Assembly: GCA_028868715.1 (NCBI GenBank)
Contig: JAGWUB010000001.1
Location: 247,206-311,205 of the forward strand
Length of the DNA: 64,000 nt
From: Patescibacteria group bacterium
GTDB lineage: Bacteria; Patescibacteriota; Minisyncoccia; Phycocordibacterales; UBA9973
Direction of reading: 5' to 3'
In this document: piece by piece, positions 1,709 through 62,983 of the stretch
How positions within the stretch are numbered: the first letter of the stretch is position 1
Layout: every line of letters begins with the position of its first letter
Notes under the pieces: generated by a model
The model's input: only the letters and a program-made list of their open reading frames with translations
Databases searched by the model: none
Told to the model about the DNA's origin: nothing
Translations under genes and position numbers: made by a program

Positions 1709-4700
1709 ATGAAAACTCTAAATACAACTGAATTTGATCAAATTGCGCTAAGGCTTGCATCCCCAGAGCAAATCCAAGAATGGTCTTTTGGTGAAGTCAC
1801 AAAACCAGAGACAATAAATTACCGAACTGGTCGCAGTGAACGCGGAGGTCTTTTTGACGAGAAAATCTTTGGTCCAGAGAAAGATTATGAATGTTACTGC
1901 GGAAAATATCGCAGAATTCGTTACAAGGATATTATTTGTGAAAAATGTGGAGTGGAAGTTACTCGTTCTATCGTCAGAAGAGAGCGAATGGGCCATATTG
2001 AGCTCGCTACTCCTGTGTCACATATTTGGTTTTTACGTGGAGTACCTTCTCGTATGAGTATTCTTTTGAATATTTCTGTTTCTGATCTTGAGAAAGTGAT
2101 CTACTTTGCTGGATACATAATTGTTAAAGTTCACGAGGAAGAGAAAAAAACTATAATTTCTAATTTGGAAAAAGAATATAAATCTAAATTAAAAAATTCG
2201 ACCGATGATGACGTCCGCGAAAAATTAAAGAGCCTACTTTCTATTACTAAAAAAGAAATAACAGAAATTTATGAAGGTAAGGTTCTAAATGAAATTTCTT
2301 TTCATCATTATTCTTTAAAATACGGAACTTGCTTTGAAGCTAATATCGGCGCAGAAGCTATTTATTCTATTTTTAAGAATCTAGATTTAAATAAATTAAA
2401 AATTCACACCGAAGCTATGTTGGAGAAGTCTAGTGTAGCTGAAAAAGAAAAATTACAGAAAAGACTTTCCTTAATTCGCGCTATGACTTATGCGGGAATT
2501 CGACCTGAATGGATGTTTTTGACTGTTATTCCCGTTATCCCACCTGTGCTTCGCCCGATGGTGGCGCTAGATGGTGGTAGACATGCAACTTCTGACCTAA
2601 ACGATCTTTATCGTAGAGTTATCAATAGAAATAATCGTTTAAAGAAATTGAAGGAAATAAATGCTCCGGATGTTATTCTTCGAAACGAAAAAAGAATTAT
2701 CCAAGAAGCAGTAGATGCCTTGATCGATAACTCAATTGCTAAACAAAACGACTCTACGGCAATGAGTCAATCCCAGAGACGTCCACTCAAATCTCTTTCT
2801 GATAACCTAAAATCCAAGCAAGGTCTTTTCCGTCAAAACTTACTTGGAAAGCGTGTGGACTATTCAGGTCGTTCAGTTATTGTCGTCGGTCCTGAGCTAA
2901 AGCTTAATCAATGTGGATTGCCGAAACATATGGCGCTGGAACTCTTTAGACCATTTGTAATTTCCAAGATTTTACAAGCTGAACTTGCTTTTAATATTCG
3001 TGGAGCTAACAAACTTATAGAGGAACGTGAAGGAGTTATCTGGGCAATATTGGAAGAAATCATCGAGGGTAAATATGTTCTTCTAAACCGCGCGCCAACC
3101 CTGCACCGTTTAGGTATTCAAGCTTTCAATCCGATTCTAATTGAAGGAAATGCTATTCAAGTACACCCACTAGTCTGTGAAGCTTTCAACGCTGACTTCG
3201 ACGGAGACCAAATGGCTGTCTACGTTCCTCTTTTGGAGGAAGCACAATCTGAAGCAAAGGAATTGATGGCGGCAAACAAAAACTTGCTTAAGCCACAAAA
3301 TGGAGATCCAATCGTTCACCCTAGTAAGGATATAGTGCTTGGAAGTTATTGGATGACCAAAGATATCACTGGAGAAGAAGGAGAAGGAAAATATTTCTCA
3401 AATCCCAACACAGCCATTTTAGCATTTGAATATGGAGTCGTATCTCTCCGAGCTAAAATAAACGTGCTGGCTACTGATCGAGAAAAATACAAAAAATTTA
3501 ATGGAGGAATGTTTGAAACCTCAGTTGGAAAACTTCTTTTCAATAGTATTTTGCCAAATGATTTTTCTTATGTGAATGATGAAATGACTCAAGGAAGACT
3601 ATCCTCACTCTTAGATGAGCTCATTATGCAATACGGCGTAGATGATACCCCTCCAATCTTGGACAAGATTAAAGCTTTCGGCTTTAAGTATTCAACAGTT
3701 TCTGGTACTACTTGGGGATTGGACAATGTCAGTGTGCCTACTCAAAAACCAAAAATTATAGAAAAAAGTAAAATTTTAGAAGAAGAAATTATATCACAAT
3801 GGAGCGACGGTCTGCTTTCAGGGGAAGAAAAATATCAAAAGGTTATTGAAATCTGGGCAAGTGCTAAAAAAGAATTAGAGAAAATTTTGCCAAGTACTCT
3901 TGATATTAATGGATCTACCTATGACCTGTTTACTTCTAAGGCTAGAGGTACCATGACTTCTCTGGTTCAGATGATCGGAATGAAAGGACTTATTCAAAAC
4001 AACCAAGGTAAAACATTGGAATTTCCAATTATTTCTTGTTACCAAGAAGGACTTTCTCCACTCGAATATTTCATAACCACTCACGGAGCTAGAAAAGGAG
4101 CATCAGATACCGCTCTTAATACCGCAAAGGCTGGGTACCTAACTCGAAGATTAGTTGACGTGGCGCAGGACGTGGTTATCACTGAAGAAGACTGTGGCAC
4201 CAAAGAAGGAAAGATAGTCTCAGCTGAAAATATTTCTGGAATTGAAATACCACTTTCAAAAAATATTCGTGGAAGAGTTTTGGCTGGCGATCTAAAAGAT
4301 GAATCTGGTAAAGTTGTCTACAAGAAAGGATTTTTAGTTACTAAAGAAGAAGCTTACAAAATAGAAAAGCAGGGCTTCAAGGAAGTATTTGTTCGTTCTC
4401 CACTTACTTGTCATACAGTGCATGGACTTTGCGTGATGTGTTATGGACTCGATTTGGGGCGAAACCACTTGGTGCAACTAGGTGAAGCTGTCGGGATTAT
4501 TGCGGCTCAAGCCATCGGCGAACCAGGAACCCAGCTTACGCTTCGTACCTTCCACGCTGGAGGTGTCGCCGGTACAGATATCACTACAGGTTTACCACGT
4601 ATTGAAGAAATATTTGAAAGAAGAATTCCTAAAAATCCAGCAATTGTTTCCGAGACAGACGGAGAAGTTATTTCTATCACCTCTAAGGATGGAGAAGAAA

Positions 4701-5326: not shown

Positions 5327-7093
5327 ATGAACTCTCCCGTTGATAAAATTAAGGAGAGACTGTCAATCGAAGAAGTAGTCTCTTCTTACATAAAGTTAGA
5401 AAAAGCAGGCGCAAACTTCAAAGCCAAGTGTCCCTTTCATAATGAAAAGACTCCATCGTTTTTTGTGTCGCCAGGGAGGGGAAGCTATTATTGTTTTGGT
5501 TGCAGTGCTTCGGGTGACATCTTTACTTTTGTTGAAGAATTCGAAGGTCTTGATTTTAAAGGCGCCTTAAAACTTTTAGCCAACAAGGCGGGAGTAATAT
5601 TAGAGAACTTTAATCCAAAGGAAGAGAGTGAAAAGGAAAAGATTTATCGGGTAATGGAAGAGGTAACCAAGTTCTTTGAAAATAATCTAAAAGAAAATCA
5701 GGAGGCAGTGGCTTACTTAAAGAGTAGAGGCCTTAATGATGAAAGTATAAAAAATTTCCGTATCGGTTTTATTCCTGAAGCTTGGCGTGACCTGCATGCG
5801 TATCTTACAAAGAAAGGATGGAATGAAGTTGAGATGGAACGTGCTGGTCTGGTCAAAAAAACTGAAAAAGGTTTTTATGATAGGTTTCGTAATCGAATTA
5901 TGTTTCCGATTTCGGACTCCAGCGGACGCGTCATAGCTTTTTCTGGAAGGTTGTTTAAAGATGATGAAAAATCAGCAAAATATTTAAACAGTCCTGATAC
6001 ACCGATTTTTAATAAATCTGCTGTTTTATACGGACTGGATAAAGCCAAAGAATCAATTCGAAAAAATAACTTTTCTATTTTAGTCGAAGGTCAAATGGAT
6101 TTGATATTGTCACATCAGGCTGGTTTTAAAAATACTGTAGCCACTTCTGGCACGGCATTATCTGACGCCACAGTGAGTAAAGAAAATGTAGTCTCCAACC
6201 TAGGCCTCGTACGTAGACTTTCAGAAAATATAGTCTTGGCATTTGATGCTGACAAAGCTGGCTTAAGTGCAACCTTGCGGGCAGGGAAAATTGCTTTATC
6301 ACTTGGCATGGATGTGAAAGTCGCAAACATAGAAGAGGGCATTGACCCCGCAGACTTGATTTCAAAGAACGGGGTGGATGCTTGGCGCGAAGCCATTAGA
6401 GGCTCCAAGCACCTGATAGAGTTTTTGCTTGCCAGAGTATTGAAGGATGCAAAGGAAGACAATCGTAAAGCGGGCAGAGAGATAAAAGATAAAGTACTAC
6501 CTTTTATAGATGCGGTTGATAGCTCTATCGAACAAATGCATTTTATAAAAAAAATATCCGATATTTCGGCAATTCCAGAAGAAGCGCTCAAAGATGATTT
6601 AAAGAAAATACAACAAGAGTTAAAATTTGAAAAACGTGAAATAGATGAGATAAAAAGCACAGGAAGTAAAATATTTAAAAAAGATTATATTGAAAGACAT
6701 TTGCTCGGCATTATCCTTTGGCAGAAAACCATAGCTAGCCCTAGTATTGATATAGATGAGACAATGACAGAGTTAGTTCGCATTTTAAATGTTAAAGAAG
6801 CAATTTTATTAGAAAAAACAACCAACGATAGAGAAGACCTAATTTTTGAAGCAGAAGTTTTCTATGGCGGAGACGAAAAGAATATGAATTTAAAAAAAGA
6901 TGTGAATGAGTTAATGTTAAACTTAGAGGAAGAATATCTAAATGAAGACAGATTTAAAAAAATGCAGGAATTGCATATATATGAAGAAAAACGAGACCTA
7001 GAGAAGGGTAGACAAATATTAAAAGAAATAAATGAGATTAACAACAAAATACAAAATATTAAAAATAGTCGTATAAATACTAAGTTTATCTAA
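5327..7093 (+). CDS. dnaG: DNA primase
   Basis: It has a CHC2 zinc finger ([30 protein letters not shown]) and Toprim-like segments ([19 protein letters not shown]). Confidence 0.9.
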
Positions 7094-11488: not shown

Positions 11489-11564
11489 TGGAGCCGGAAG
11501 AGGGATTCGAACCCACGACCTTCGCTTTACAAAAGCGTTGCTCTACCAACTGAGCTATTCCGGC
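11489..11564 (-). tRNA. tRNA, probably tRNA-Thr (anticodon UGU)
   Basis: The minus-strand cloverleaf has acceptor GCCGGAA/TTCCGGC, a GTTCGAATC T-loop, anticodon loop TTTGTAA and an encoded CCA. Confidence 0.8.
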
Positions 11565-16021: not shown

Positions 16022-16901
16022 AAGCCGAAAAAGGAATAGGTTTCTGAAAATTATTTTTGGTATTTTCTTTTTCATTATTTTATTTTATTTTCGAGCAGGT
16101 ATTTTTAATGGACTTTCGTATATAAGTGGAGGCGTTTTTCGCCCAGTTTTAATTTCTAGCAATGGTATTGGTGGAAAAATTAATGATCTTGGCTCATATT
16201 TTTCTTCTAAGAATTCTCTCTATAAAGAAAATTTGGACTTAAAATCTAAGCTGGACGGCAGTGCTGCAGATAGAGCCAACTATGATTCAGTAGTGGCAGA
16301 GAATCAAAGCCTGAAAGAAATTTTAGGCAGAAAAAATATCCAGGCTAACATGATCTTGGGAGCTATTTTAGCAAAGCCAAATCAGAGTTTATATGATACG
16401 CTCTTAATTGATGTGGGTAGTGAACAAGGCATAAAAATGGCAGACAGAGTTTTTGCTTATGGAAATATTCCGATAGGCTACATAGCAGAAGTTAATTCAA
16501 AATCTTCAAAAGTAATTTTACTTTCAAATAGTGGAGAGGTGACACAAGTCGTGGCTTCTATTACTCATAACCCCGCTGACGAGGCAAACAAGCCAATACA
16601 GAGTGACACAGTGACGGTGGACCAAATTACACCTAGCCCTAGTGTTGTCCCTACTCCCGTTGCGCAAGGTAAAAACGTTTCTTTGGAAATAATTGGACGT
16701 GGTGGTGGAAATTTTGAAATGGCTATACCAAACGGACTTAATTTATTTAAAGGAGATCAAGTCGTTTTGCCAGGTATGTCATCTTATGTAGTTGGTATTG
16801 TAGAGACTATCATTTCTGATCCACGTAATTCTTTCCAAAAAGCCTTATTAGTATCTCCAGTTAATATTCAAGGACTTAAATTTGTGGAAGTGCAAAATTG
16901 A
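16002..16901 (+). CDS. mreC: rod-shape determining protein MreC (likely)
   Basis: It overlaps the mreB stop. It has an N-terminal TM helix, a coiled-coil and a beta-rich C-terminal part. Confidence 0.6.
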   Translation: MSYLLDKSRKRNRFLKIIFGIFFFIILFYFRAGIFNGLSYISGGVFRPVLISSNGIGGKINDLGSYFSSKNSLYKENLDLKSKLDGSAADRANYDSVVAENQSLKEILGRKNIQANMILGAILAKPNQSLYDTLLIDVGSEQGIKMADRVFAYGNIPIGYIAEVNSKSSKVILLSNSGEVTQVVASITHNPADEANKPIQSDTVTVDQITPSPSVVPTPVAQGKNVSLEIIGRGGGNFEMAIPNGLNLFKGDQVVLPGMSSYVVGIVETIISDPRNSFQKALLVSPVNIQGLKFVEVQN

Positions 16902-18199
16902 TGGATTTTAAAATTGAGAAAAAGTTAAAAAATAGTCTTGGGCGGGCTGGGGTATTAAAAACTGCTCATGGGGAAATCCATACTCCAGCTTTCGTGCCCG
17001 TGGGAACGAAAGCTACGATCAAGGCTCTCACTACTGAACAGGTTTTGGAGCTTGGCGCCGAAGTTATTTTAGCTAATACATACCATCTTTATTTACAACC
17101 AGGAGATGAAATTGTAAGAGATGCCGGTGGCTTACATAAATTTATGAACTGGAATGGTCCAATCATCACCGACTCTGGTGGTTTTCAAGTTTTTTCTTTG
17201 GGCGCTGCTTACGGAAAAGAGATTTCCAAGGTAACAAAGATAACTGATCCTTCACTTTTGATCCCAGAACGTTTTGACGACAGCGATGCTCCGCGGCTGG
17301 CAAAAATTGGACAAGATGGAGTTTCCTTTAAGTCACATCTTGATGGCTCGGTGCATTATATTACTCCCGAAAAGTCTATTGAAATTCAACACAACCTAGG
17401 CGCAGATATTATTTTTGCTTTTGATGAATGTACTAGCCCAACTGAGGACTTACGTTATCAAGAAGAAGCACTGGAGCGAACGCATCGATGGGCAGAGAGA
17501 AGTTTAGCGGAGCATGAAAAATTAAAGAATTCAAAAAAGCAACTTTCTCACGACTCGCACTCTGTCCTGAATATGACTGACCGAGCTTTGGATGCGAAGG
17601 TCGAAGAAAGTTCTTTTTCGAATTCTTCTAAAAATTTTTCTTCCGCACTTTTTGGTATTGTGCAGGGTGGGCGGGATGAAAATTTGCGCAAGAAATCAGC
17701 TCATTTTATGAGTAAGCTAGATTTTGATGGATTTGGGATTGGTGGGAGTTTTGCCAAGGAAGATATGTCTACGGCTGTGAAATGGGTAAATAAGATTTTG
17801 CCAGAGGAAAAACCTCGCCATTTACTTGGTATCGGTGAACCAGAAGATTTGTTTATGGGTATAGAAAATGGGGTGGATCTTTTTGACTGCGTAGCGCCAA
17901 CTCGCAACGCCAGAAATGGTTCGCTGTATACCAAAGGTGGAAAAATAAATATTACAAATACGAAATACCGAAATGACTTTTCAAAAATAGAAGAAGCTTG
18001 CGAGTGTTACACCTGCAAAAGCTATACTCGTGCCTATTTAGCACACCTCTTCCACGGTAAAGAAATGTTAGCTGGAACACTCGCCACAATACACAATCTT
18101 TATTTTATTGTTAGCTTAGTTAAAAAAATTCGACGATCAATCATAGACGAAAACTTCTTCGAATTCAAAAAGGAGTTCTTGAGCGAGTATTCACAATAG
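16898..18199 (+). CDS. tgt: queuine tRNA-ribosyltransferase with a roughly 33-aa in-frame insertion
   Basis: The N-terminus reads LKTAHGEIHTPAFVPVGTKA. The zinc site is CECYTCKSYTRAYLAHL. The gene is about 55 aa longer than a typical Tgt. Confidence 0.9.
   Translation: MMDFKIEKKLKNSLGRAGVLKTAHGEIHTPAFVPVGTKATIKALTTEQVLELGAEVILANTYHLYLQPGDEIVRDAGGLHKFMNWNGPIITDSGGFQVFSLGAAYGKEISKVTKITDPSLLIPERFDDSDAPRLAKIGQDGVSFKSHLDGSVHYITPEKSIEIQHNLGADIIFAFDECTSPTEDLRYQEEALERTHRWAERSLAEHEKLKNSKKQLSHDSHSVLNMTDRALDAKVEESSFSNSSKNFSSALFGIVQGGRDENLRKKSAHFMSKLDFDGFGIGGSFAKEDMSTAVKWVNKILPEEKPRHLLGIGEPEDLFMGIENGVDLFDCVAPTRNARNGSLYTKGGKINITNTKYRNDFSKIEEACECYTCKSYTRAYLAHLFHGKEMLAGTLATIHNLYFIVSLVKKIRRSIIDENFFEFKKEFLSEYSQ
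17527..17625. repeat. 99-nt GC-rich palindromic MITE/RPE-like element inserted in frame in tgt
   Basis: Terminal inverted repeats are GAATTCAAAAAAGCAACTTTCTCA and TCGAAGAAAGTTCTTTTTCGAATTC. Length is 33 codons. GC is far above the surrounding sequence. Confidence 0.6.
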
Positions 18200-20229: not shown

Positions 20230-20526
20230 AGCCTTGTGTTAGATAGCTACTCTTCGATTTATATCGGAGAGAGGAAAGTCCGAACACATAGCCCTTTGGG
20301 TTAAACGTAGCGGGTAATTCCCGTCGTCCGCAAGGATAGAGGTGCGAACAGAGACGAGCTCCTTTAGTGGAGGTGAAACGGCAAAATCCTTACGCGTGTG
20401 CAAGATCGTGCTCCGACCTCGGTCGGAGAGAATCGCTTGAGTCCTGTAGTAATGCAGGACCTAGACAAATTGCTATCGCTCCGACCTCGGTCGGGGTCAC
20501 AAAATTCGGCTTATAGACACAAGGCT
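20230..20526 (+). ncRNA. rnpB: RNase P RNA (bacterial type, compact)
   Basis: P4 strands GAGAGGAAAGTCCGAACAC and ACAAAATTCGGCTTATA. A GGTGAAACGG motif. The P1 helix closes as AGCCTTGTGT...ACACAAGGCT. Confidence 0.85.
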
Positions 20527-20534
20527 AAAACATG

Positions 20535-20599: not shown

Positions 20600-20692
20600 T
20601 GGCTCCGTGAGTGTAAGGAGTGATTCTTGCATTTATCGTAAACAATATATGTGCCGCAAAGGCCCACCGCAAGGTGGGTCTTTGTTTTTTTC
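20600..20692 (+). ncRNA. candidate small RNA or terminator-containing 5' leader upstream of mltG
   Basis: An extended -10 TGCTATATT lies at 20592-20600. It is followed by about 60 nt and a strong terminator (GCCCACC-GCAA-GGTGGGTC-TTTGTTTTTTT). Confidence 0.35.
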
Positions 20693-21614: not shown

Positions 21615-21688
21615 GGGCCCTTAGCTCATCTGGCTAGAGCGCCTCATTTGCAATGAGGAGGTGGCAGGTTCGAGTCCTGTAGGGTCCA
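21615..21688 (+). tRNA. tRNA-Ala (anticodon UGC)
   Basis: Cloverleaf with acceptor GGGCCCT/AGGGTCC including the G3:U70 Ala identity pair. Anticodon loop TTTGCAA. Confidence 0.88.
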
Positions 21689-21708: not shown

Positions 21709-21783
21709 TCCGGGGTAGCTCAGCGGTAGAGCGGTCGCCTGTTAAGCGATTGGTCGTAGGTTCGATCCCTACCCCCGGAGCCA
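21709..21783 (+). tRNA. tRNA-Asn (anticodon GUU)
   Basis: Cloverleaf with acceptor TCCGGGG/CCCCGGA, anticodon loop CTGTTAA, T-loop TTCGATC and an encoded CCA. Confidence 0.88.
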
Positions 21784-23617: not shown

Positions 23618-23627
23618 CCACATCATC

Positions 23628-23681
23628 AAGCCACCCACACAAGAAAGCCTACTGGCATATCTTGCGGGTGGCTTTTCTTTT
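23628..23681 (+). terminator. terminator hairpin
   Basis: AAGCCACCC...GGGTGGCTT stem followed by TTTCTTTTT. Confidence 0.6.
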
Positions 23682-32302: not shown

Positions 32303-33799
32303 ATGGAAGGGCTCGATGACAAAAAAAAAGGATCCAACCTGCGTTGGTGGATATTACTTACCGTTATAATTGGAACTTTTTTAGGTCGCCTAGATCAAAC
32401 GATAGTGAACTTGGCTCTGCCAAAAATCATTAATGATTTTGGCATTTCGGTTACCGCGGCTGGATGGATAGCTACAGCTTATATTTTAGCTAATGCTGTT
32501 TTCGTGCCGATTTGGGGTAAATTGGGCGATACTATTGGAAGAAAAAAAGTTTACATTATTGGTTTCAGTATTTTTATTTTCGGTTCTGTCTTGGCGGGAC
32601 TTTCATGGAATCTTTCTTCAATGATTGTCTTTCGGGTGATTCAAGCTATAGCCGGATCAGCTGATTATCCGACAGCCATGGCGATATTAGCCGTGACTTT
32701 CAAAAATGGAAAAGAACGTGCGCAAGCACTCGGCATTTGGTCCTCTTCTTTCGCCGCCGCGGCTGTTTTTGGACCACTTTTAGGTGGTCCTTTGATAGAC
32801 AATTTTGGCTGGCGTTCAGTTTTTCTAATCAATCTTCCAATTGGTATTTTAGGTATCATCATGGCCGTTCGTTTTATCAATGAATCACGTTCAGAACAAA
32901 AAACCACATACTTTGATTGGTGGGGATCGCTTTCATTGGGAGGTATGCTTTCTATGTTGGTGCTCGTTTTAGACAAAGGATTAACTTGGGGTTGGTTTTC
33001 AACCGCAAGTCTAATATGTTACTTTTTGATAATTTTCCTCTTGTGGTTATTTATCAGAATAGAAAAAAATGCCAAAGACCCGATTGTGGATTTGCGTTTT
33101 TTCAAAATTCCTGCTTTTGTCAATACTCTGATTAATAACTTTATTGTTTTTATGGGTATGATTGGCGGAATTTTCTTGATACCTATATTTGCGCAAACGT
33201 TTCTCGGGTATACCGCTACTCAATCAGGATATCTTTTTATTCCGATGGCTGCAGCCTTGATGCTAGCAGCTCCAATAGGAGGCGCACTGACTGGGCGAGT
33301 CCAAGCGCGCTACGTGATTTTTGCCAGTACCTTGGTGGCAGCCATCGGTATTTATTTCTTCTCCTTTCTTGATCCCAAGTCCGGTGCTCTGGCTATAATA
33401 ATTCCGCTTTCGGTCATGGCTTTTGGTCTTGGTTTTGGAATGGCGCAACGAACGAATGTTATTGCTTCCGTAGTAAACCCAAATGAAATCGGCATTGCTT
33501 CTTCAATTTTGGCCCTAGCTCGCAATATTGCTGGCGCTTTTGGAATTGCTATTTTTGGAACAATTTTAACAAACCGAGTTTATACAAACGTAATGTCTAT
33601 AAACAATTTTAGCGTTATTCGTAGTACCAATCCGATTGATATAAGTAAATACGTTGGACTAGTAGAACTAAAAGCTCAAGTCAATGCTTACAACTATGTT
33701 TTTTTGGTTGCATCCATTATAGTTTTTGTCGGAGCCTTTGCGGTGCTCTTTATGAAAATTAAACATGAACGCACGGATATAACTGTGCACGTAGAGTAA
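32303..33799 (+). CDS. MFS drug:H+ antiporter, DHA2 (EmrB/QacA-like, 14 TM helices)
   Basis: Motifs LPKIINDFGISVTAAGWIATAYILANAVFVPIWGKLGDTIGRKKVYIIG and VFRVIQAIAG. 498 aa. Confidence 0.85.
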   Translation: MEGLDDKKKGSNLRWWILLTVIIGTFLGRLDQTIVNLALPKIINDFGISVTAAGWIATAYILANAVFVPIWGKLGDTIGRKKVYIIGFSIFIFGSVLAGLSWNLSSMIVFRVIQAIAGSADYPTAMAILAVTFKNGKERAQALGIWSSSFAAAAVFGPLLGGPLIDNFGWRSVFLINLPIGILGIIMAVRFINESRSEQKTTYFDWWGSLSLGGMLSMLVLVLDKGLTWGWFSTASLICYFLIIFLLWLFIRIEKNAKDPIVDLRFFKIPAFVNTLINNFIVFMGMIGGIFLIPIFAQTFLGYTATQSGYLFIPMAAALMLAAPIGGALTGRVQARYVIFASTLVAAIGIYFFSFLDPKSGALAIIIPLSVMAFGLGFGMAQRTNVIASVVNPNEIGIASSILALARNIAGAFGIAIFGTILTNRVYTNVMSINNFSVIRSTNPIDISKYVGLVELKAQVNAYNYVFLVASIIVFVGAFAVLFMKIKHERTDITVHVE

Positions 33800-49815: not shown

Positions 49816-50214
49816 ATGCGAATAAATTTACAAGGCAAAAATATTGAGTTAACGGAGCCTATCAAAGATTATGTTTTAAAGAGAGTAACTAACTTGGAAA
49901 AATTACTTTCTGGGATTGAAAAAGGGGGAGGGGAAGTAGCAGTCACGTTTGAAGTTGGTAAAAGCACCAAGCATCACAAAGGAACTTCTATTTTTAATGC
50001 TTATTGTTTAATCAATACCAATGGCGAAGAATTTTATTCTAGCGCTGATGAGGAGGATTTATATACCGCGATTGATATAGTTAAAGAAAATCTCTTTAGG
50101 GAAATAAATAAAAACAAAGATCGTAAAAAGACATTGTTTAAACGAGGAGCCATGAGCGTCAAAAAAATGCTCAAAGGTCTTTCCAAGCGAAATCCTTTTA
50201 CTTCTAAGTACTAA
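49816..50214 (+). CDS. hpf: ribosome hibernation-promoting factor / RaiA family
   Basis: MRINLQGKNIELTEPIKDYVLKRVTNLEKLL...EDLYTAIDIVKENLFREINKNKDRKK. Confidence 0.85.
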   Translation: MRINLQGKNIELTEPIKDYVLKRVTNLEKLLSGIEKGGGEVAVTFEVGKSTKHHKGTSIFNAYCLINTNGEEFYSSADEEDLYTAIDIVKENLFREINKNKDRKKTLFKRGAMSVKKMLKGLSKRNPFTSKY

Positions 50215-51107
50215 TTTTTATAATCCATTTCTTTACCTCCCTCGGGGATAATTTTTTCTATAATGAATTGGTTATTTTCTAATTTTGCTTTAGTAATTAT
50301 TATTCTTTTTCCATCCTTAAAGAAGTAAGTTCTAGGCCAAGTGGCATAGGCACGAAATTTATTGTAATTTTTAACCGAGTCGTCAGAAAGATCTATTAAC
50401 CCATCTTCTTTTTTTATTTTAGTACAATAAGTTGCTTTTGTTTCATCTTGTCGAGTTGTTTTAATTGTTCCAGCTATAAATTCCGGTAGAGTTTTTACCA
50501 GAAGCTCACCTCCAAGTTTTATCAATCGCTTGCGAAGTTCTGGGGATTTTTCATCTGGCATTATTTCTGTCTTATCTATAGCAATGATTGGCCCGGAATC
50601 CATTTTGAATTCCATTTGTTGAATAGTTACCCCCGTCTCTGTGTCGCCATTTAAAATAGCAGATTCCACCGGTGAAGCTCCGCGATATTTAGGAAGCAAA
50701 GAATAGTGAAGGTTTATAGAGCCTAGCTTTGGTAGCTTCAGTATATTTTCTGGAATTATTTTTCCGTAAGCTACGACTAAGAAGAGCTCGGGGATATTTT
50801 TGCTTACACGCATATCCTGCTGGTGCAGGATTGCTTTTCTCGGCTCGTCAGCCTGCGAAGAGATCGCAAAAATATCCCCGAGCTCTTCTTTGAGTTTCTC
50901 TGGTTGTATGTATGGAATATTATTTTCCATAGCCCAAACCTTGGCTGGTGGGGGAGTAATGACCATTTTACGCCCCTGTGGGCGGTCAGGAGCAGTTACA
51001 ATAAGACTAGGTATATATCCAGCACTCTTTAGTATTTCCAAAGTCTCACTGGCCACATCTGGAGTACCCCAAAATACAAAATTTAACTTTTTACTATTAT
51101 CTTGCAT
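50211..51107 (-). CDS. fmt: methionyl-tRNA formyltransferase with a short in-frame repeat-derived insertion
   Basis: NFVFWGTPDVASETL and SINLHYSLLPKYRGASPVESAILNGDTETGVTIQ. Confidence 0.9.
   Translation of the reverse strand: MQDNSKKLNFVFWGTPDVASETLEILKSAGYIPSLIVTAPDRPQGRKMVITPPPAKVWAMENNIPYIQPEKLKEELGDIFAISSQADEPRKAILHQQDMRVSKNIPELFLVVAYGKIIPENILKLPKLGSINLHYSLLPKYRGASPVESAILNGDTETGVTIQQMEFKMDSGPIIAIDKTEIMPDEKSPELRKRLIKLGGELLVKTLPEFIAGTIKTTRQDETKATYCTKIKKEDGLIDLSDDSVKNYNKFRAYATWPRTYFFKDGKRIIITKAKLENNQFIIEKIIPEGGKEMDYKN
50800..50880. repeat. degenerate copy of the GC-rich palindromic element, inserted in frame in fmt
   Basis: TCTCGGCTCGTCAGCCTGCGAAGAGA matches the 25-nt core of the def element at 21/22 positions. 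An adjacent palindrome is ATCCTGCTGGTGCAGGAT. It encodes ..SSQADEPRKAILHQQD.. in fmt. Confidence 0.6.
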
Positions 51108-51111
51108 ATTA

Positions 51112-51693
51112 TTACTTAGGAAGTTCTTCTTTCACCTCCTTGGCATGGTCTATAAACAGTATGCCATTTAGGTGGTCGGTTTCGTGTTGGAAAATTTGAG
51201 CGAGCAAACCAGATGCTCCGCGAGTAAATTTTTTACCGTTTTCATCGTAAGCGGTGACAGTGGCTTTTTTTGATCTATTAACTTTTCCATAAAGCCAGCG
51301 GACAGAAAGGCACCCCTCTGGCAACCATTCCTTTTCACGCGAAAGTTTGGAAATTTTTGGATTGATAAACACCATATCTTTCTCCGCAGACTTTCTCAGA
51401 GCGGGGTCGCTATCTGTGCGTGCTCGCACAGCGCTCCCTCTCGGCTCGTCAACCTGCGAGAGACCCCGCCTTGAGAAGTCTGCTCCGAAAATTTTTCCTG
51501 ATACAACAAAAATTCTCAGGCTGTAACCAATCTGTGGAGCAGCTATGGCTACACCATCATGCTGGCTAGAGAGGGCCACAGACATCTCTTTTAATATCTT
51601 TTTTATTTTCGTAGTTTTAATATCTGGCAAAAGTACCTCTTTGGCAACTTTCCGCAAAGTCTTCTCTTTTTGTTGAAGAATTTTTTTTGGCAT
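51112..51693 (-). CDS. def: peptide deformylase carrying a 32-aa in-frame insertion between motifs 1 and 2
   Basis: Motif 1 GVAIAAPQIG, motif 2 EGCLS and motif 3 QHETDHLNG are present. The motif 1 to motif 2 spacing is about twice the usual. Confidence 0.9.
   Translation of the reverse strand: MPKKILQQKEKTLRKVAKEVLLPDIKTTKIKKILKEMSVALSSQHDGVAIAAPQIGYSLRIFVVSGKIFGADFSRRGLSQVDEPRGSAVRARTDSDPALRKSAEKDMVFINPKISKLSREKEWLPEGCLSVRWLYGKVNRSKKATVTAYDENGKKFTRGASGLLAQIFQHETDHLNGILFIDHAKEVKEELPK
51387..51482. repeat. 96-nt GC-rich MITE/RPE-like element with 22-bp terminal inverted repeats, inserted in frame in def
   Basis: CAGACTTTCTCAGAGCGGGGTC ... GACCCCGCCTTGAGAAGTCTG. An internal palindrome is GTGCGTGCTCGCAC. 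The core is TCTCGGCTCGTCAACCTGCGAGAGA. Length is 32 codons. Confidence 0.7.
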
Positions 51694-60875: not shown

Positions 60876-61886
60876 ATGTTAAATCCAGATTTAAAATTAA
60901 ATCCAAAAATTTTCAATGACGATGTCGCGCAAGCACCGATCCGAAAAGGCTTCGGGGAGGGGTTAGTTTTAGCTGGGGATCAGGATAAAAATGTAGTGGC
61001 CCTTTGCGCCGATTTGACCGAGTCCACCCAAATGATTTTTTTTAAAGAAAAGTTTCCAGAGAGATTTGTGGAAATTGGTGTGGCTGAACAAAATCTCGTT
61101 ACGGTTGCTTCTGGGATGGCAGCAATGGGCAAAATTCCTTTTTGTTCTTCTTATGCGATGTTTTCTCCGGGGAGAAATTGGGAACAAATCAGGACAACCA
61201 TAGCTTACAACGACCGACCGGTAAAAATAATTGGTTCACATGCGGGTATTTCTGTCGGACCGGATGGTGGCACACATCAAGCCCTGGAAGACATTGCTCT
61301 CATGCGCGTGGTACCAAACATGGAAGTCATTTCTCCTTGTGATTCAATTGAAGCCAAAAAAGCAACTCAAGCAATTACCAAAACTGGCAAACCAGCATAT
61401 TTACGACTAGCTAGAGAGAAAACTCCCATAGTCACCACAGAAGAAACTCCATTTACGCTTGGCAAGGCCGAAGTTTATTGGATGCCAGATGTGGGCATTC
61501 CTCAGGTAGGAATAATAGTAACTGGTGGGTTGATGCATCGGGCCCTACTCGCTGCTAAAGAATTACAAGACCAAGAGGAGCCACAGCGAATTAAAACAAA
61601 AGTAATGAATCTTTCATGCATCAAGCCGATAGATGTGAAAGCTATTGTGGCTTTAGCAAAAGAATGTAAAGCAATCGTAACTGTGGAGGAGCATCAAGTT
61701 GCTGGTGGAATGGGATCGGTAGTAGCAGAGGTACTCTCGCAAAATTTTCCGGTGCCGATGGAATTTGTCGGCGTGCAAGATAAGTTTGGGCAAAGCGGTA
61801 CACCAGACGAACTCATAGAACATTATGGTATGGGAAAAAATTCTATCAAAGAAGCGGTGAGGAAAGTGCTAAAACGAAAAATCTAG
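60876..61886 (+). CDS. tkt: transketolase, C-terminal (pyrimidine-binding) subunit
   Basis: FVEIGVAEQNLVTVASGMAAMG...SHAGISVGPDGGTHQALEDIALMR. Confidence 0.85.
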   Translation: MLNPDLKLNPKIFNDDVAQAPIRKGFGEGLVLAGDQDKNVVALCADLTESTQMIFFKEKFPERFVEIGVAEQNLVTVASGMAAMGKIPFCSSYAMFSPGRNWEQIRTTIAYNDRPVKIIGSHAGISVGPDGGTHQALEDIALMRVVPNMEVISPCDSIEAKKATQAITKTGKPAYLRLAREKTPIVTTEETPFTLGKAEVYWMPDVGIPQVGIIVTGGLMHRALLAAKELQDQEEPQRIKTKVMNLSCIKPIDVKAIVALAKECKAIVTVEEHQVAGGMGSVVAEVLSQNFPVPMEFVGVQDKFGQSGTPDELIEHYGMGKNSIKEAVRKVLKRKI

Positions 61887-61985
61887 GAAAGAGTTTTTAT
61901 AAAGCAATCTATCTGGCGTTGCTACGCCAGCGAACCTGCTCGGGCCGACGCCCTTGCGCAAGACTTTCTAAAAACTCTTTCCTAG
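61884..61985. mobile_element. 102-nt GC-rich MITE-like palindromic element between convergent tkt and pfkB. It has perfect 17-bp terminal inverted repeats.
   Basis: CTAGGAAAGAGTTTTTA ... TAAAAACTCTTTCCTAG. Internal hairpins are CTGGCG-TTGCTA-CGCCAG and GGGC-CGAC-GCCC. The two CTAG ends supply the TAG stop codons of both flanking genes. Confidence 0.65.
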
Positions 61986-62983
61986 ATCCTATTGGCCTTG
62001 TAGTTTGCAGGTGCGTTTTTTAGATATTCCTCTAGCTTTTCTCTGGATAAAAGTCCTGCTTGAGCACCGACTTTTTGCACTACAGACATAGAATTTACTG
62101 GCCCCCAAGCAAATGCTTCTAGAGGAGATTTTCCCAGAGCGAGTCCTGCTGTAATAGTGGAAGAAAAAGCATCTCCGGCACCAGTGCGCTCTAGTGGTGG
62201 AGCGATGTCAGGATATATTGGGATTTTCCATAGCTCATCATTTAAATATAAATATGCTCCGTTTGGCCCATCGCTAATACAAACTATTTTTGGTCCGAGA
62301 GCCATTAAGCCTTTTGATAAAGTAAGCACGTCTTTGCCTTCAATTCCCAAGATTTTTTCGGCTTCTTCCAGATTGCAGAAAAATATTTCTGTTCGTGCAT
62401 ATATTTCTTTTAATTTTTCTGCACCAAATTTTATTTGAAATGTTCCCGGCTGGAAAGCTAGCTTGGTTTCTGGGTGATTCTTTAAAAATTCTATTATAGC
62501 CAAATGATAGGGCAGGGAATGCTCTGCCAAAGAACTCAAGTAAATCCAGGATATTTTAGGTAATTTTGGAAGTTTGTATTCAAATTCCGTGTGTTTGATT
62601 AAAATTGTTCGATCAATATCGTACCACAAAACATAGTGGTAATTTGTAATTTTGTCTTTTTCAATTGCTATGTATTCTGTCGTTACTTTTTCATTTTTTA
62701 ATGACTCTAAGCAATCATTGCCATGTTTATCATTTCCAATACTGGCCACGAGTCCGACGTTTAGTCCTAGGCGTGAAGCTGAGACTGCCGCATTTGGGCT
62801 ATTGCCAACTGCTGGTACCACGGTTACAGATTCATAGGGAACTTTATCTCCAAAACGAAAACAAAGTTCACACGCATCTGTATCTATTCGGCAATGTACG
62901 TGGGCATCGTTTAATTTTATAAATGCATCTATGACAATGTCTCCAATTGCCAAAAGATCTATTTCACCCTCTTTTTCGTTCAT
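61982..62983 (-). CDS. PfkB-family carbohydrate kinase (ribokinase-like)
   Basis: C-terminal TGAGDAF motif. An N-terminal GG pattern. Confidence 0.75.
   Translation of the reverse strand: MNEKEGEIDLLAIGDIVIDAFIKLNDAHVHCRIDTDACELCFRFGDKVPYESVTVVPAVGNSPNAAVSASRLGLNVGLVASIGNDKHGNDCLESLKNEKVTTEYIAIEKDKITNYHYVLWYDIDRTILIKHTEFEYKLPKLPKISWIYLSSLAEHSLPYHLAIIEFLKNHPETKLAFQPGTFQIKFGAEKLKEIYARTEIFFCNLEEAEKILGIEGKDVLTLSKGLMALGPKIVCISDGPNGAYLYLNDELWKIPIYPDIAPPLERTGAGDAFSSTITAGLALGKSPLEAFAWGPVNSMSVVQKVGAQAGLLSREKLEEYLKNAPANYKANRI

What the first reader, a model, noticed from the sequence alone, without database searches (positions are those of the whole stretch)
17527..17625. Third in-frame palindromic insertion, inside tgt (99 nt = 33 codons)
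Tgt is about 55 aa longer than usual between the ...WAERSLAEH region and the ALFGIVQGG motif. The extra DNA is exactly 99 nt. It is bounded by near-perfect 24-bp inverted repeats beginning and ending with GAATTC (GAATTCAAAAAAGCAACTTTCTCA ... TCGAAGAAAGTTCTTTTTCGAATTC). It has a GC-rich centre and encodes NSKKQLSHDSHSVLNMTDRALDAKVEESSFSNS. Its left TIR shares ACTTTCTCA with the left TIR of the def element (GACTTTCTCAGAGCGG). This suggests a related family of elements, each a multiple of 3 nt long.
Basis: seen in the sequence. Interest (0 to 1): 0.7.

Follow-up and report, generated by a model that had tools for sequence, protein, structure and literature searches.

The report
Mobile palindromic insert inside tgt
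The extra 33-35 codons in this bacterium's tgt gene are a copy of a roughly 105-base hairpin-forming repeat that also sits, in frame, in other housekeeping genes of related ultra-small (Patescibacteria) bacteria, much like the palindromic elements of Rickettsia.

Summary
Window 17527-17625 lies inside an imperfect palindrome of 105 nt (17524-17628). It is in frame in an intact tgt gene (16898-18199) and folds far better than shuffles (z -4.7).

It is not private to tgt. The same 105-nt unit occurs in Tgt of at least 7 related Paceibacteria. It also occurs at two sites in MnmA, once inverted and still open.

- **Stem:** across 15 copies it is 95.5% paired. 18 of 34 pairs show double (compensatory) changes and there are almost no G-T pairs.
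- **Conservation:** the three codon positions are equally conserved (0.76/0.80/0.76). Third positions of the flanking tgt are saturated (0.46). So the conserved object is the DNA, not the peptide.
- **Site:** this Tgt loop is an insertion hot spot. About 105 of 116 close orthologues carry some hairpin insert there, from several families, including the type found in this window's def gene in both orientations. There are nested, tandem and decayed copies, and 11 short ("empty") sites.

Best reading: a non-autonomous, RPE/MITE-like palindromic mobile element that survives only in permissive protein loops. The transposition machinery, any target duplication and direct homology to the def element remain unshown. 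No description in Patescibacteria was found.

The parts
16898..18199 (+). tgt gene (tRNA-guanine transglycosylase), 433 aa, intact. It hosts the element.
   Evidence: ORF list. Pfam TGT E=1.5e-139. An identical protein, P0001, is annotated Tgt from a Patescibacteria MAG. Catalytic Asp and Cys/His zinc ligands are invariant in alignment A2.
17524..17628 (+). It is read through in frame as Tgt residues about 210-244.
   Evidence: Covariance model R1 hit, 112.5 bits, E=3e-27, model positions 1-105. nhmmer E=1.5e-29. Ungapped alignment with 14 other copies.
17524..17538 (.). Outer left arm. It pairs with 17614-17628 and contains GAATTC. Its sequence varies between copies, but always in step with the partner arm.
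   Evidence: Consensus structure and pair counts, columns 1-15 with 91-105.
17614..17628 (.). Outer right arm, the partner of 17524-17538. It contains the second GAATTC.
   Evidence: In the window copy the mismatches are at pairs 1/105 and 10/96 only.
17541..17562 (.). Conserved inner left stem (CTTTCTCA CGACTCGCA CTC). It pairs with 17590-17612.
   Evidence: Columns 18-39 are nearly invariant across 15 copies from two genes.
17563..17589 (.). Conserved unpaired centre of 27 nt (...CTGAATATGACTGACCGAGCTTTGGA...). This is the GC-richer core used as the search pattern.
   Evidence: Column conservation. The pattern CTGACNNNGCTTTGGWWGCGAA recovered copies in tgt and mnmA from metagenomes.
17590..17612 (.). 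Conserved inner right stem (TGCGAAGGTCGAAGAAAG), the partner of 17541-17562.
17516..17523 (.). Host codons (Glu-Lys-Leu of the conserved EHxKL) that pair with 17632-17639. The palindrome extends into host sequence here.
   Evidence: Minimum-free-energy structure. The partner lies in 12 nt (SKNF) that are absent from the closest relatives L081 and L096.
17632..17639 (.). Outermost right partner (AATTTTTC) of 17516-17523, inside a lineage-specific 12-nt extension.
51385..51485 (-). def-type (D) palindromic element, in frame in def (51112-51693, minus strand). Elements with the same core occupy the Tgt site in other species.
   Evidence: Sequence. Encoded peptide GLSQVDEPRGSAVRARTDSDP. 88-90% identity of its core to the Tgt inserts of L001 and L087.
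50779..50890 (-). Related element in frame in fmt (50211-51107, minus strand). It has perfect 25-nt arms and shares the core CTCGGCTCGTCARCCTGCGA with the def element.
   Evidence: Intergenic relatives in L090, L093 and L096.
61881..61987 (.). Intergenic hairpin element between two convergent genes (transketolase C-terminal half and a pfkB-family kinase).
   Evidence: Arms 24 nt, 96% complementary. Gene identities. A relative lies upstream of tgt in L083.

Best explanation
The tgt insert is one copy of a non-autonomous palindromic mobile element. I call it 'type A': 105 nt, with variable outer arms, a conserved inner stem and a conserved 27-nt centre. It belongs to a large population of such hairpin elements in Paceibacteria (Patescibacteria/CPR) genomes.

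The element spreads as DNA. It lands in many places, but in these gene-dense genomes it persists only where it does no harm: in intergenic gaps, or in protein loops where its length (a multiple of 3) and a stop-free frame let the ribosome read through. In Tgt it adds about 33-35 disordered residues to a helix-to-strand connection.

**Shown**
- Dispersal to a second gene and in both orientations.
- Presence/absence polymorphism at the Tgt site.
- Replacement and nesting by other element families at the same site.
- Conservation at the DNA level rather than the protein level.
- Watson-Crick-only covariation of the arms.

**Inferred**
- The conserved centre and inner stem are the cis site recognised by a trans-acting enzyme, not identified here. 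It could be a single-strand hairpin-recognising transposase of the IS200/IS605 or RAYT kind.
- The arms are kept complementary by hairpin-templated (template-switch) copying and/or by selection for mobility.
For: **1. Real hairpin in an intact gene**
-.

**2. Same unit elsewhere**
- 15 ungapped 105-nt copies were aligned. They come from Tgt of 7 genomes, from MnmA site 1 in 5 contigs, and from MnmA site 2 in 3 contigs, one of them inverted yet open.
- Model R1 gives E-values of 1e-23 to 1e-31 for these copies.
- Two copies in one mnmA gene (L093) share identical arms.

**3. Structure**
- 95.5% of cells are paired, against 82.4% in shuffles.
- 18 of 34 pairs have changes on both sides (0 of 500 shuffles reach this; slid controls give 3-8).
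- In the arms there are 433 Watson-Crick pairs, 3 G-T and 8 A-C. That is a DNA-type palindrome.

**4. Not protein-level selection**
- Element identity by codon position is 0.76/0.80/0.76. Flanking tgt is 0.90 at positions 1+2 and 0.46 at position 3.
- The inverted copy encodes an unrelated peptide.

**5. Hot spot and turnover**
- Of 116 orthologues, 11 are empty and the rest hold type A, def-type forward, def-type reverse, a third frame, or other families.
- The nearest Tgt neighbour has the same insert class in only 31 of 116 cases (random expectation 16.6).
- L100 has a type A 5' remnant (profile positions 2-40) followed by a def-type element. L102 has type A and def-type in tandem. L083 has the core deleted and the arms kept.
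- L103 and L104 have close flanks (89% nt) and the same core in opposite orientation with unrelated arms.
- MnmA shows the same assortment of inserts at two sites.

**6. Site in the protein**
- The site is a loop. It replaces residues 187-190 of Z. mobilis Tgt. In the (poor) model it is coil with pLDDT below 50.

**7. No known RNA family or regulatory signal**
-.
Against: - No transposase, target-site duplication or autonomous parent element was found.
- Only one type A copy lies in this 64-kb window, and the rest of this genome could not be searched.
- Type A was recovered only in tgt and mnmA. The search used one strict 18-base pattern. Peptide searches found nothing more.
- Arm types tend to go with the site: ENSKK in Tgt, QDKK in MnmA site 1, QNPKQ in MnmA site 2. 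This fits old, vertically kept insertions. In that case the 0.77 element identity beside saturated synonymous sites calls for purifying selection, gene conversion or templated repair, not just recent transposition.
- No viral copies were found.
Confidence: 0.75

Rival explanations
1. The hairpin is a host-useful structured nucleic-acid element embedded in coding sequence and kept by purifying selection. It could be an mRNA or DNA hairpin that tunes expression, stability, pausing or replication. Its resemblance to a mobile element would then reflect domestication.
For: - Nucleotide-level conservation without codon periodicity, next to saturated synonymous sites.
- Strong covariation and a conserved unpaired centre.
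- Site-specific arm types suggest long residence.
- Both known type A hosts modify tRNA position 34.
Against: - There are almost no G-T pairs, and A-C mismatches are at least as common. This is not the signature of an RNA helix on the sense strand.
- Copies work in both orientations.
- The same loop is filled by many unrelated families, or is empty or decayed, in close relatives.
- No Rfam match above noise and no promoter or terminator signal.
Confidence: 0.15
2. It is an ordinary lineage-specific protein loop of Tgt selected for a protein function, and the DNA palindromy is incidental.
For: The insert is present in about a quarter of close orthologues with a recognisable peptide (LSH.SHS.LN...EES). 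Tgt has another insertion at aa 104-133 that really is conserved at the protein level.
Against: - All three codon positions are equally conserved.
- The same DNA is in MnmA, and an inverted copy gives a different peptide.
- Arms covary to keep base pairing while the peptide changes.
- The loop is predicted to be disordered.
- Close relatives lack it or carry unrelated inserts.
Confidence: 0.03
3. It is an intervening sequence that is removed after transcription or translation (a mini-intron or intein-like segment), so it never appears in mature Tgt.
For: It is a compact structured insert in an essential gene. CPR bacteria are known, from general knowledge, for insertions in rRNA genes.
Against: - All 15 copies keep a multiple-of-3 length and an open frame in the host's reading direction. 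That would be unnecessary if the segment were spliced from RNA.
- 33-35 aa is far too small for an intein, and the sequence differs by orientation.
- No intron or ribozyme family matches.
Confidence: 0.03
4. It is an assembly or binning artefact.
For: The source is a metagenome-assembled genome.
Against: The same insert at the same site appears in independent assemblies from NCBI, JGI, ENA and Logan, with species-level sequence differences.
Confidence: 0.01

Closest known systems
Rickettsia palindromic elements (RPE; Ogata et al. 2000, as summarised in PMC10969869 and PMC3184786)
   Same: - About 105-150 bp palindromic repeats.
- Many copies inserted in frame in unrelated housekeeping genes, including tRNA-modification genes.
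- Each family encodes a characteristic peptide, and the host protein is apparently still functional.
- AT-rich, reduced genomes.
- No transposase known.
   Different: - Different phylum (Patescibacteria), and no sequence relationship was tested or is expected.
- Here one loop of one protein is hit again and again by several families and in both orientations, with nesting and replacement.
- The conserved part is the centre, and the arms vary with compensation.
- Pairing reaches into host codons.
[quoted passage not shown]
   Same: Small, with no coding capacity of their own, terminal inverted repeats, dispersed copies, and occasional in-frame intragenic copies (PMC10969869).
   Different: No target-site duplication could be recognised, and no parent IS with matching ends was found. 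The outer inverted repeats are the least conserved part, which is the opposite of what a transposase binding terminal repeats would predict.
REP / REPIN elements with RAYT transposases, and CGTC-tagged REPs (PMC3733652)
   Same: - Hairpin-forming repeats, dimers that fold into roughly 100-nt hairpins, and intragenic copies.
- The CGTC class also lacks a dedicated transposase.
- A conserved hairpin core recognised as single-stranded DNA is the most plausible mobilisation route here.
- The fmt and def elements carry GGCT-CGTC-AGCC.
   Different: - REP units are 20-40 nt with the tag at one end and outside the stem. Here CGTC, when present, is a hairpin loop, and the window's tgt copy has CGGTC instead.
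- No RAYT gene appears in the gene tables of the loci examined.
GC-rich palindromic clusters of fungal mitochondrial genomes (general knowledge)
   Same: GC-richer palindromes that spread in AT-rich compact genomes and are occasionally tolerated in frame inside protein genes.
   Different: Organellar, much shorter, and unrelated in sequence. The comparison rests on recall and was not tested.

Membership tests
RPE-like protein-coding palindromic elements | Palindromic repeat of about 100-150 bp able to form one long hairpin | tested here: met
   105-nt unit. Fold z -4.7. 34-pair consensus stem, 95.5% paired over 15 copies.
RPE-like protein-coding palindromic elements | Several dispersed copies, in unrelated genes and in intergenic DNA | tested here: inconclusive
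   Met for the family across genomes: tgt plus two mnmA sites, with two copies per contig in L089, L093 and L098. No intergenic type A copy was seen, and only one copy lies in this window. The rest of this genome was not searchable.
RPE-like protein-coding palindromic elements | Inserted in frame with the host reading frame preserved | tested here: met
   All 15 copies are 105 nt. The host-used frame is stop-free in every copy, including the inverted one. Tgt and MnmA read through to their normal C-termini.
RPE-like protein-coding palindromic elements | Insert lies in a surface loop compatible with the fold | tested here: inconclusive
   It replaces the 4-residue connection 187-190 between a helix and the ALFGIQQG strand of Z. 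mobilis Tgt. It is coil with pLDDT below 50 in a poor model (mean pLDDT 54). Solvent exposure and distance to the active site were not computed.
RPE (Rickettsia) in the strict sense | Sequence homology to RPE-1 to RPE-10 consensus, and occurrence in Rickettsia | not tested
   No RPE sequences were available in the tools. The host is a Patescibacteria MAG, so strict membership is not claimed.
MITE | Terminal inverted repeats | tested here: met
   Outer arms 17524-17538 and 17614-17628.
MITE | Target-site duplication flanking the element | tested here: inconclusive
   Junctions were compared in tgt and mnmA copies and against an empty site, L101. No direct repeat was recognisable. Short 'empty' alleles may themselves be remnants.
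MITE | A related autonomous IS with the same ends | not tested
   No whole-genome search was possible. No transposase appears in the Pfam gene tables of the fetched loci.
REP / REPIN with RAYT | [quoted passage not shown] | tested here: not met
   The unit is a single 105-nt hairpin with no GTAG. The window copy reads CGGTCAG on the lower strand where some relatives read CCGTCAG.
REP / REPIN with RAYT | Associated tyrosine (HUH/Y1) transposase gene | tested here: inconclusive
   The Pfam lists of about 15 loci flanking tgt show no Y1 transposase family. These cover only small parts of the genomes.
Intein or self-splicing intron | Splicing motifs or a ribozyme fold, and removal from the mature product | tested here: not met
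   33-35 codons. No Rfam intron or ribozyme match. Frame and stop-freeness are maintained. Removal itself cannot be tested here.

The most novel reading that the evidence does not exclude
These hairpins are not passive passengers. They would be a distinct kind of coding-region palindrome system in CPR bacteria with two properties.

- **Mobile unit and target:** a conserved core is the mobile unit and preferentially enters the apex of resident hairpins. This creates self-perpetuating 'landing pads' in permissive loops of essential genes.
- **Arm growth:** the arms grow outward and are kept perfectly complementary by snap-back or template-switch copying of the neighbouring host codons.

This would explain four observations:
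- arm types that go with the site;
- Watson-Crick-only covariation;
- pairing that runs into conserved host codons;
- nucleotide conservation far above the synonymous background.
Probability: 0.25. Interest if true: 0.85.

Novelty: new member of a known kind. Interest (0 to 1): 0.68.

Why it matters
In-frame 'selfish' palindromes in housekeeping genes have so far been described mainly in Rickettsia. I found no report of them in Patescibacteria in the searchable literature.

- **Annotation and phylogeny:** here about 90% of close Tgt orthologues, and most MnmA orthologues, carry such an insert. Much of the unexplained length variation in CPR core proteins may therefore be mobile DNA. That matters for annotation, for alignments and phylogenies of CPR marker genes, and for structure prediction.
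- **Study system:** the recurrent hits on one loop, the replacements and the nested copies give a natural system for asking how palindromic elements move, how palindromes are kept perfect, and how new peptide segments enter old enzymes.

Tried and rejected
**Searches that gave nothing**
- Exhaustive HMMER search of 1.84 billion representative proteins with the 44-aa insert peptide: 0 hits.
- Word-indexed search with a 40-column peptide profile: only one 66-aa fragment.
- Viral contig scans with type A and def-type core patterns: 0 hits.
- Literature searches for a prior description in CPR/Patescibacteria: nothing found.

**Searches that under-delivered**
Only L001-L004 and L008 were useful.
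- The AlphaFold model was poor (mean pLDDT 54), so no fold search was run.

**Ideas tested and rejected**
- **Known RNA family:** Rfam at gathering and permissive thresholds gave only sub-threshold plant miRNA-precursor hairpin matches.
- **Hammerhead:** I considered this reading by eye for CUGAYGA...GAAA in the cores. The motifs are not conserved between copies.
- **In-situ inversion of the def-type core between L103 and L104:** rejected, because the arms are unrelated.
- **Homology of type A to def-type:** not detected by covariance model or nhmmer.
- **Terminator or promoter role:** none found at the site.
- **DGR target, integron attC, intein:** considered from general knowledge and set aside. 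There is no adenine-specific variation, there are no cassette ends, and the insert is too small.

Full report
**Observation**

The window is AT-rich (GC 0.35-0.42). The region 16898-18199 (+) is a 433-aa ORF with a full-length Pfam TGT match. An identical protein is on record from a Patescibacteria MAG (P0001).

GAATTC occurs at 17527-17532 and at 17620-17625, and the 99 nt between and including them are in frame. The arms form an imperfect inverted repeat. The segment 17515-17640 folds at -36.1 kcal/mol against -21.5 +/- 3.1 for dinucleotide shuffles, z = -4.7.

Two details of the finding need correction.
- **Excess length.** The excess at this place is about 33 residues, not 55. The window has 44 aa between EH and LFGIVQGG, against 8-13 aa in empty orthologues. 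Query 208-244 stands opposite residues 187-190 of Z. mobilis Tgt. The remainder of the extra length is a separate insertion at aa 104-133. That one is conserved as protein across the clade and is not a hairpin (z +2.0).
- **Shared motif.** The ACTTTCTCA shared with the def element is not above chance.

**The unit and its relatives**

Alignment of Tgt homologues showed that the site between EHxKL and ALFGIVQGG is short in some close relatives. In others it is filled by different sequences.

I fetched the DNA of relatives. The window's type of insert ('type A') is present at the same place in L081, L082, L084, L085 and L086. In every one it folds into the same long hairpin, although the arm sequences differ.

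A scan of metagenome contigs used a pattern from the conserved centre. It returned 12 loci.
- Five were chance matches.
- One was another Tgt (L096).
- Six carried the element in mnmA. The element sits at a first site after ATGHYA, and in three contigs also at a second site after KKNILxVSQ.
- In L098 the second-site copy is inverted relative to the gene, and the gene is still open.

All 15 copies align without a single gap over 105 nt, which corresponds to window 17524-17628.

A covariance model built from them scores all copies at 98-125 bits. In about 0.48 Mb of Patescibacteria loci plus the window it finds only these copies, a decayed remnant in L083, and a hairpin of another family in L093. 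nhmmer adds the Tgt copy of L102 and a 5' remnant in L100.

**What is conserved**

The consensus structure has 34 pairs.
- 95.5% of cells are paired, against 82.4% in column shuffles.
- 18 pairs show changes on both sides. No shuffle out of 500 reaches this, and slid controls give 3-8.
- Outside the two innermost pairs there are 433 Watson-Crick pairs, 3 G-T and 8 A-C. This is what a DNA palindrome looks like. An RNA helix selected on one strand would look different.

Only one forward frame is stop-free, and all forward copies use it.

Among seven Tgt loci the flanking tgt sequence is 0.90 identical at codon positions 1+2 and 0.46 at position 3, which is saturated. The element is 0.77 identical, with no codon periodicity (0.76/0.80/0.76). 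Tgt copies are as close to MnmA copies as to each other: core identity is 0.80 against 0.78.

So the thing being kept is the nucleotide sequence and its pairing, not the peptide. This excludes an ordinary functional protein loop.

**The site is a hot spot**

Of 116 close Tgt orthologues, 11 have 8-13 aa at the site. The rest have 24-79 aa. By my reading, the classes are roughly:
- about 29 of type A, plus 9 of a shorter relative;
- about 25 with GSLS..ALPLGSSACETPRK;
- about 7 with GLSQADEPRGSA..DSDP;
- about 6 with SLGPSLRSATPSQKH;
- several further classes.

The second and third classes are the two orientations of the element that sits in this window's def gene. The core of the def element (51385-51485) is 88-90% identical to the Tgt inserts of L001 and L087.

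Every insert examined at DNA level is a hairpin.

Turnover is fast. The nearest Tgt neighbour, typically 88-96% identical outside the insert, has the same insert class in only 31 of 116 cases, against a random expectation of 16.6 +/- 4.4. Individual loci show what this turnover looks like.
- **L103 and L104:** the flanks are 89% identical at nucleotide level. The loci carry the same core in opposite orientations with unrelated arms, so this is replacement and not in-situ inversion.
- **L100:** the first 40 positions of type A are followed by a complete def-type element.
- **L102:** type A and def-type lie in tandem.
- **L083:** the arms are kept and the core is lost.

MnmA orthologues show the same assortment of peptide classes at both of their sites. 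These include hybrids that start as type A and continue as another family.

**Mechanism**

The best-supported reading is a non-autonomous palindromic mobile element of the RPE/MITE kind. In these compact genomes it is filtered by selection, so that only in-frame, stop-free copies in tolerant loops survive.

In Tgt the loop connects a long helix to the strand that begins ALFGIVQGG. It therefore lies at the N-terminal end of a barrel strand. By general knowledge of TIM barrels, that is the face opposite the active site. The catalytic Asp residues and zinc ligands are intact.

What moves the element is unknown.
- The conserved centre and inner stem, with variable arms, point to recognition of a folded single strand rather than of terminal repeats. 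This is an inference.
- No transposase is visible in the neighbourhoods fetched.
- No target duplication could be defined.

**Open points**

Arm types go with the site: ENSKK in Tgt, QDKK and QNPKQ in MnmA. This suggests long residence. In that case the high element identity beside saturated synonymous sites needs selection, gene conversion or templated repair.

Pairing also runs into host codons.
- In the window, GAAAAATT (Glu-Lys-Leu, 17516-17523) pairs with AATTTTTC (17632-17639). The partner lies inside a 12-nt stretch that the closest relatives lack.
- Def-type inserts in Tgt begin AGCGC directly after the Leu codon. They end in the GCGCT of the Ala-Leu codons.

A palindrome that grows and corrects itself by template switching would explain these points. 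This is not shown.

**Comparison with known families, and novelty**

The closest known parallel is the Rickettsia palindromic elements. They are about 105-146 bp, come in many families, and about half of the 44 R. conorii copies are in frame in unrelated genes (PMC10969869, PMC3184786). REP elements also occur inside genes, and the CGTC class lacks a transposase (PMC3733652).

Strict membership in any of these families is not claimed.
- Homology to RPE was not testable.
- The REP tag criterion is not met.
- The MITE criteria of target duplication and a parent IS are open.

I found no description of such elements in Patescibacteria. I therefore class this as a new member of a known kind. Its unusual features are the multi-family hot spot, the nesting and the self-complementary arms that reach into host codons. 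These could make it more than that.

Noticed in passing
window 51385-51485 and 50779-50890: Two further in-frame hairpin elements lie in the adjacent def and fmt genes (minus strand). They share the core CTCGGCTCGTCARCCTGCGA, a 7-bp covarying hairpin with a TGCT loop, and unrelated outer arms. The fmt arms are a perfect 25-nt inverted repeat.
   Followed up: partly
window 61881-61987; L083 39-158: An intergenic hairpin element (arms 24 nt, 96% complementary) lies between two convergent genes. A relative lies just upstream of tgt in another genome.
   Followed up: partly
L089, L090, L091, L093, L098 (mnmA); proteins P0122-P0241: MnmA of Paceibacteria has two insertion hot spots, after ATGHYA and after KKNILxVSQ. 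They are filled by the same peptide classes as the Tgt site. Type A was recovered only in tgt and mnmA, both enzymes that modify tRNA position 34. This may be sampling bias from one strict search pattern.
   Followed up: partly
window 17516-17523 with 17632-17639; L083 792-863; L087 and L103 Tgt inserts: The palindromes extend into conserved host codons (E-K-L on the left, A-L on the right). The extension covaries with each genome's own flank. This suggests outward growth of the palindrome by templated copying.
   Followed up: partly
window 17207-17296 (Tgt aa 104-133): A second insertion of 30 aa relative to Z. mobilis Tgt. It is conserved as protein across the clade (IPERFDD invariant) and has no hairpin at DNA level (z +2.0). 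It is an ordinary lineage-specific insertion.
   Followed up: yes
window 33239-33351: A strong hairpin (-51 kcal/mol, z -3.9) lies inside an ORF that looks like an MFS transporter (32303-33799). The encoded sequence looks like ordinary transmembrane and loop sequence. Whether it is an element was not determined.
   Followed up: partly
window 20231-20529, 21615-21688, 21709-21780, 11492-11564: RNase P RNA (bacterial class A, 122 bits) and three tRNA genes. Strong terminator-like hairpins lie at about 20650-20690 and 23625-23680.
   Followed up: no
L089 about 1-1900: A large ORF that looks like a serine recombinase lies directly upstream of mnmA. It is fused to mnmA in a stop-to-stop reading. 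L101 also has a resolvase-family gene about 6 kb from tgt. No link to the elements was shown.
   Followed up: no
L084 8151-9196: mreB is called as two ORFs (106 and 242 aa) in this relative. This may be a frameshift or an assembly error.
   Followed up: no
L093 6092-6204; L090 about 3450-3570; L096 about 6560-6680: Intergenic copies of the fmt-type element occur in contigs that also carry type A. One genome therefore holds several hairpin families at once.
   Followed up: partly
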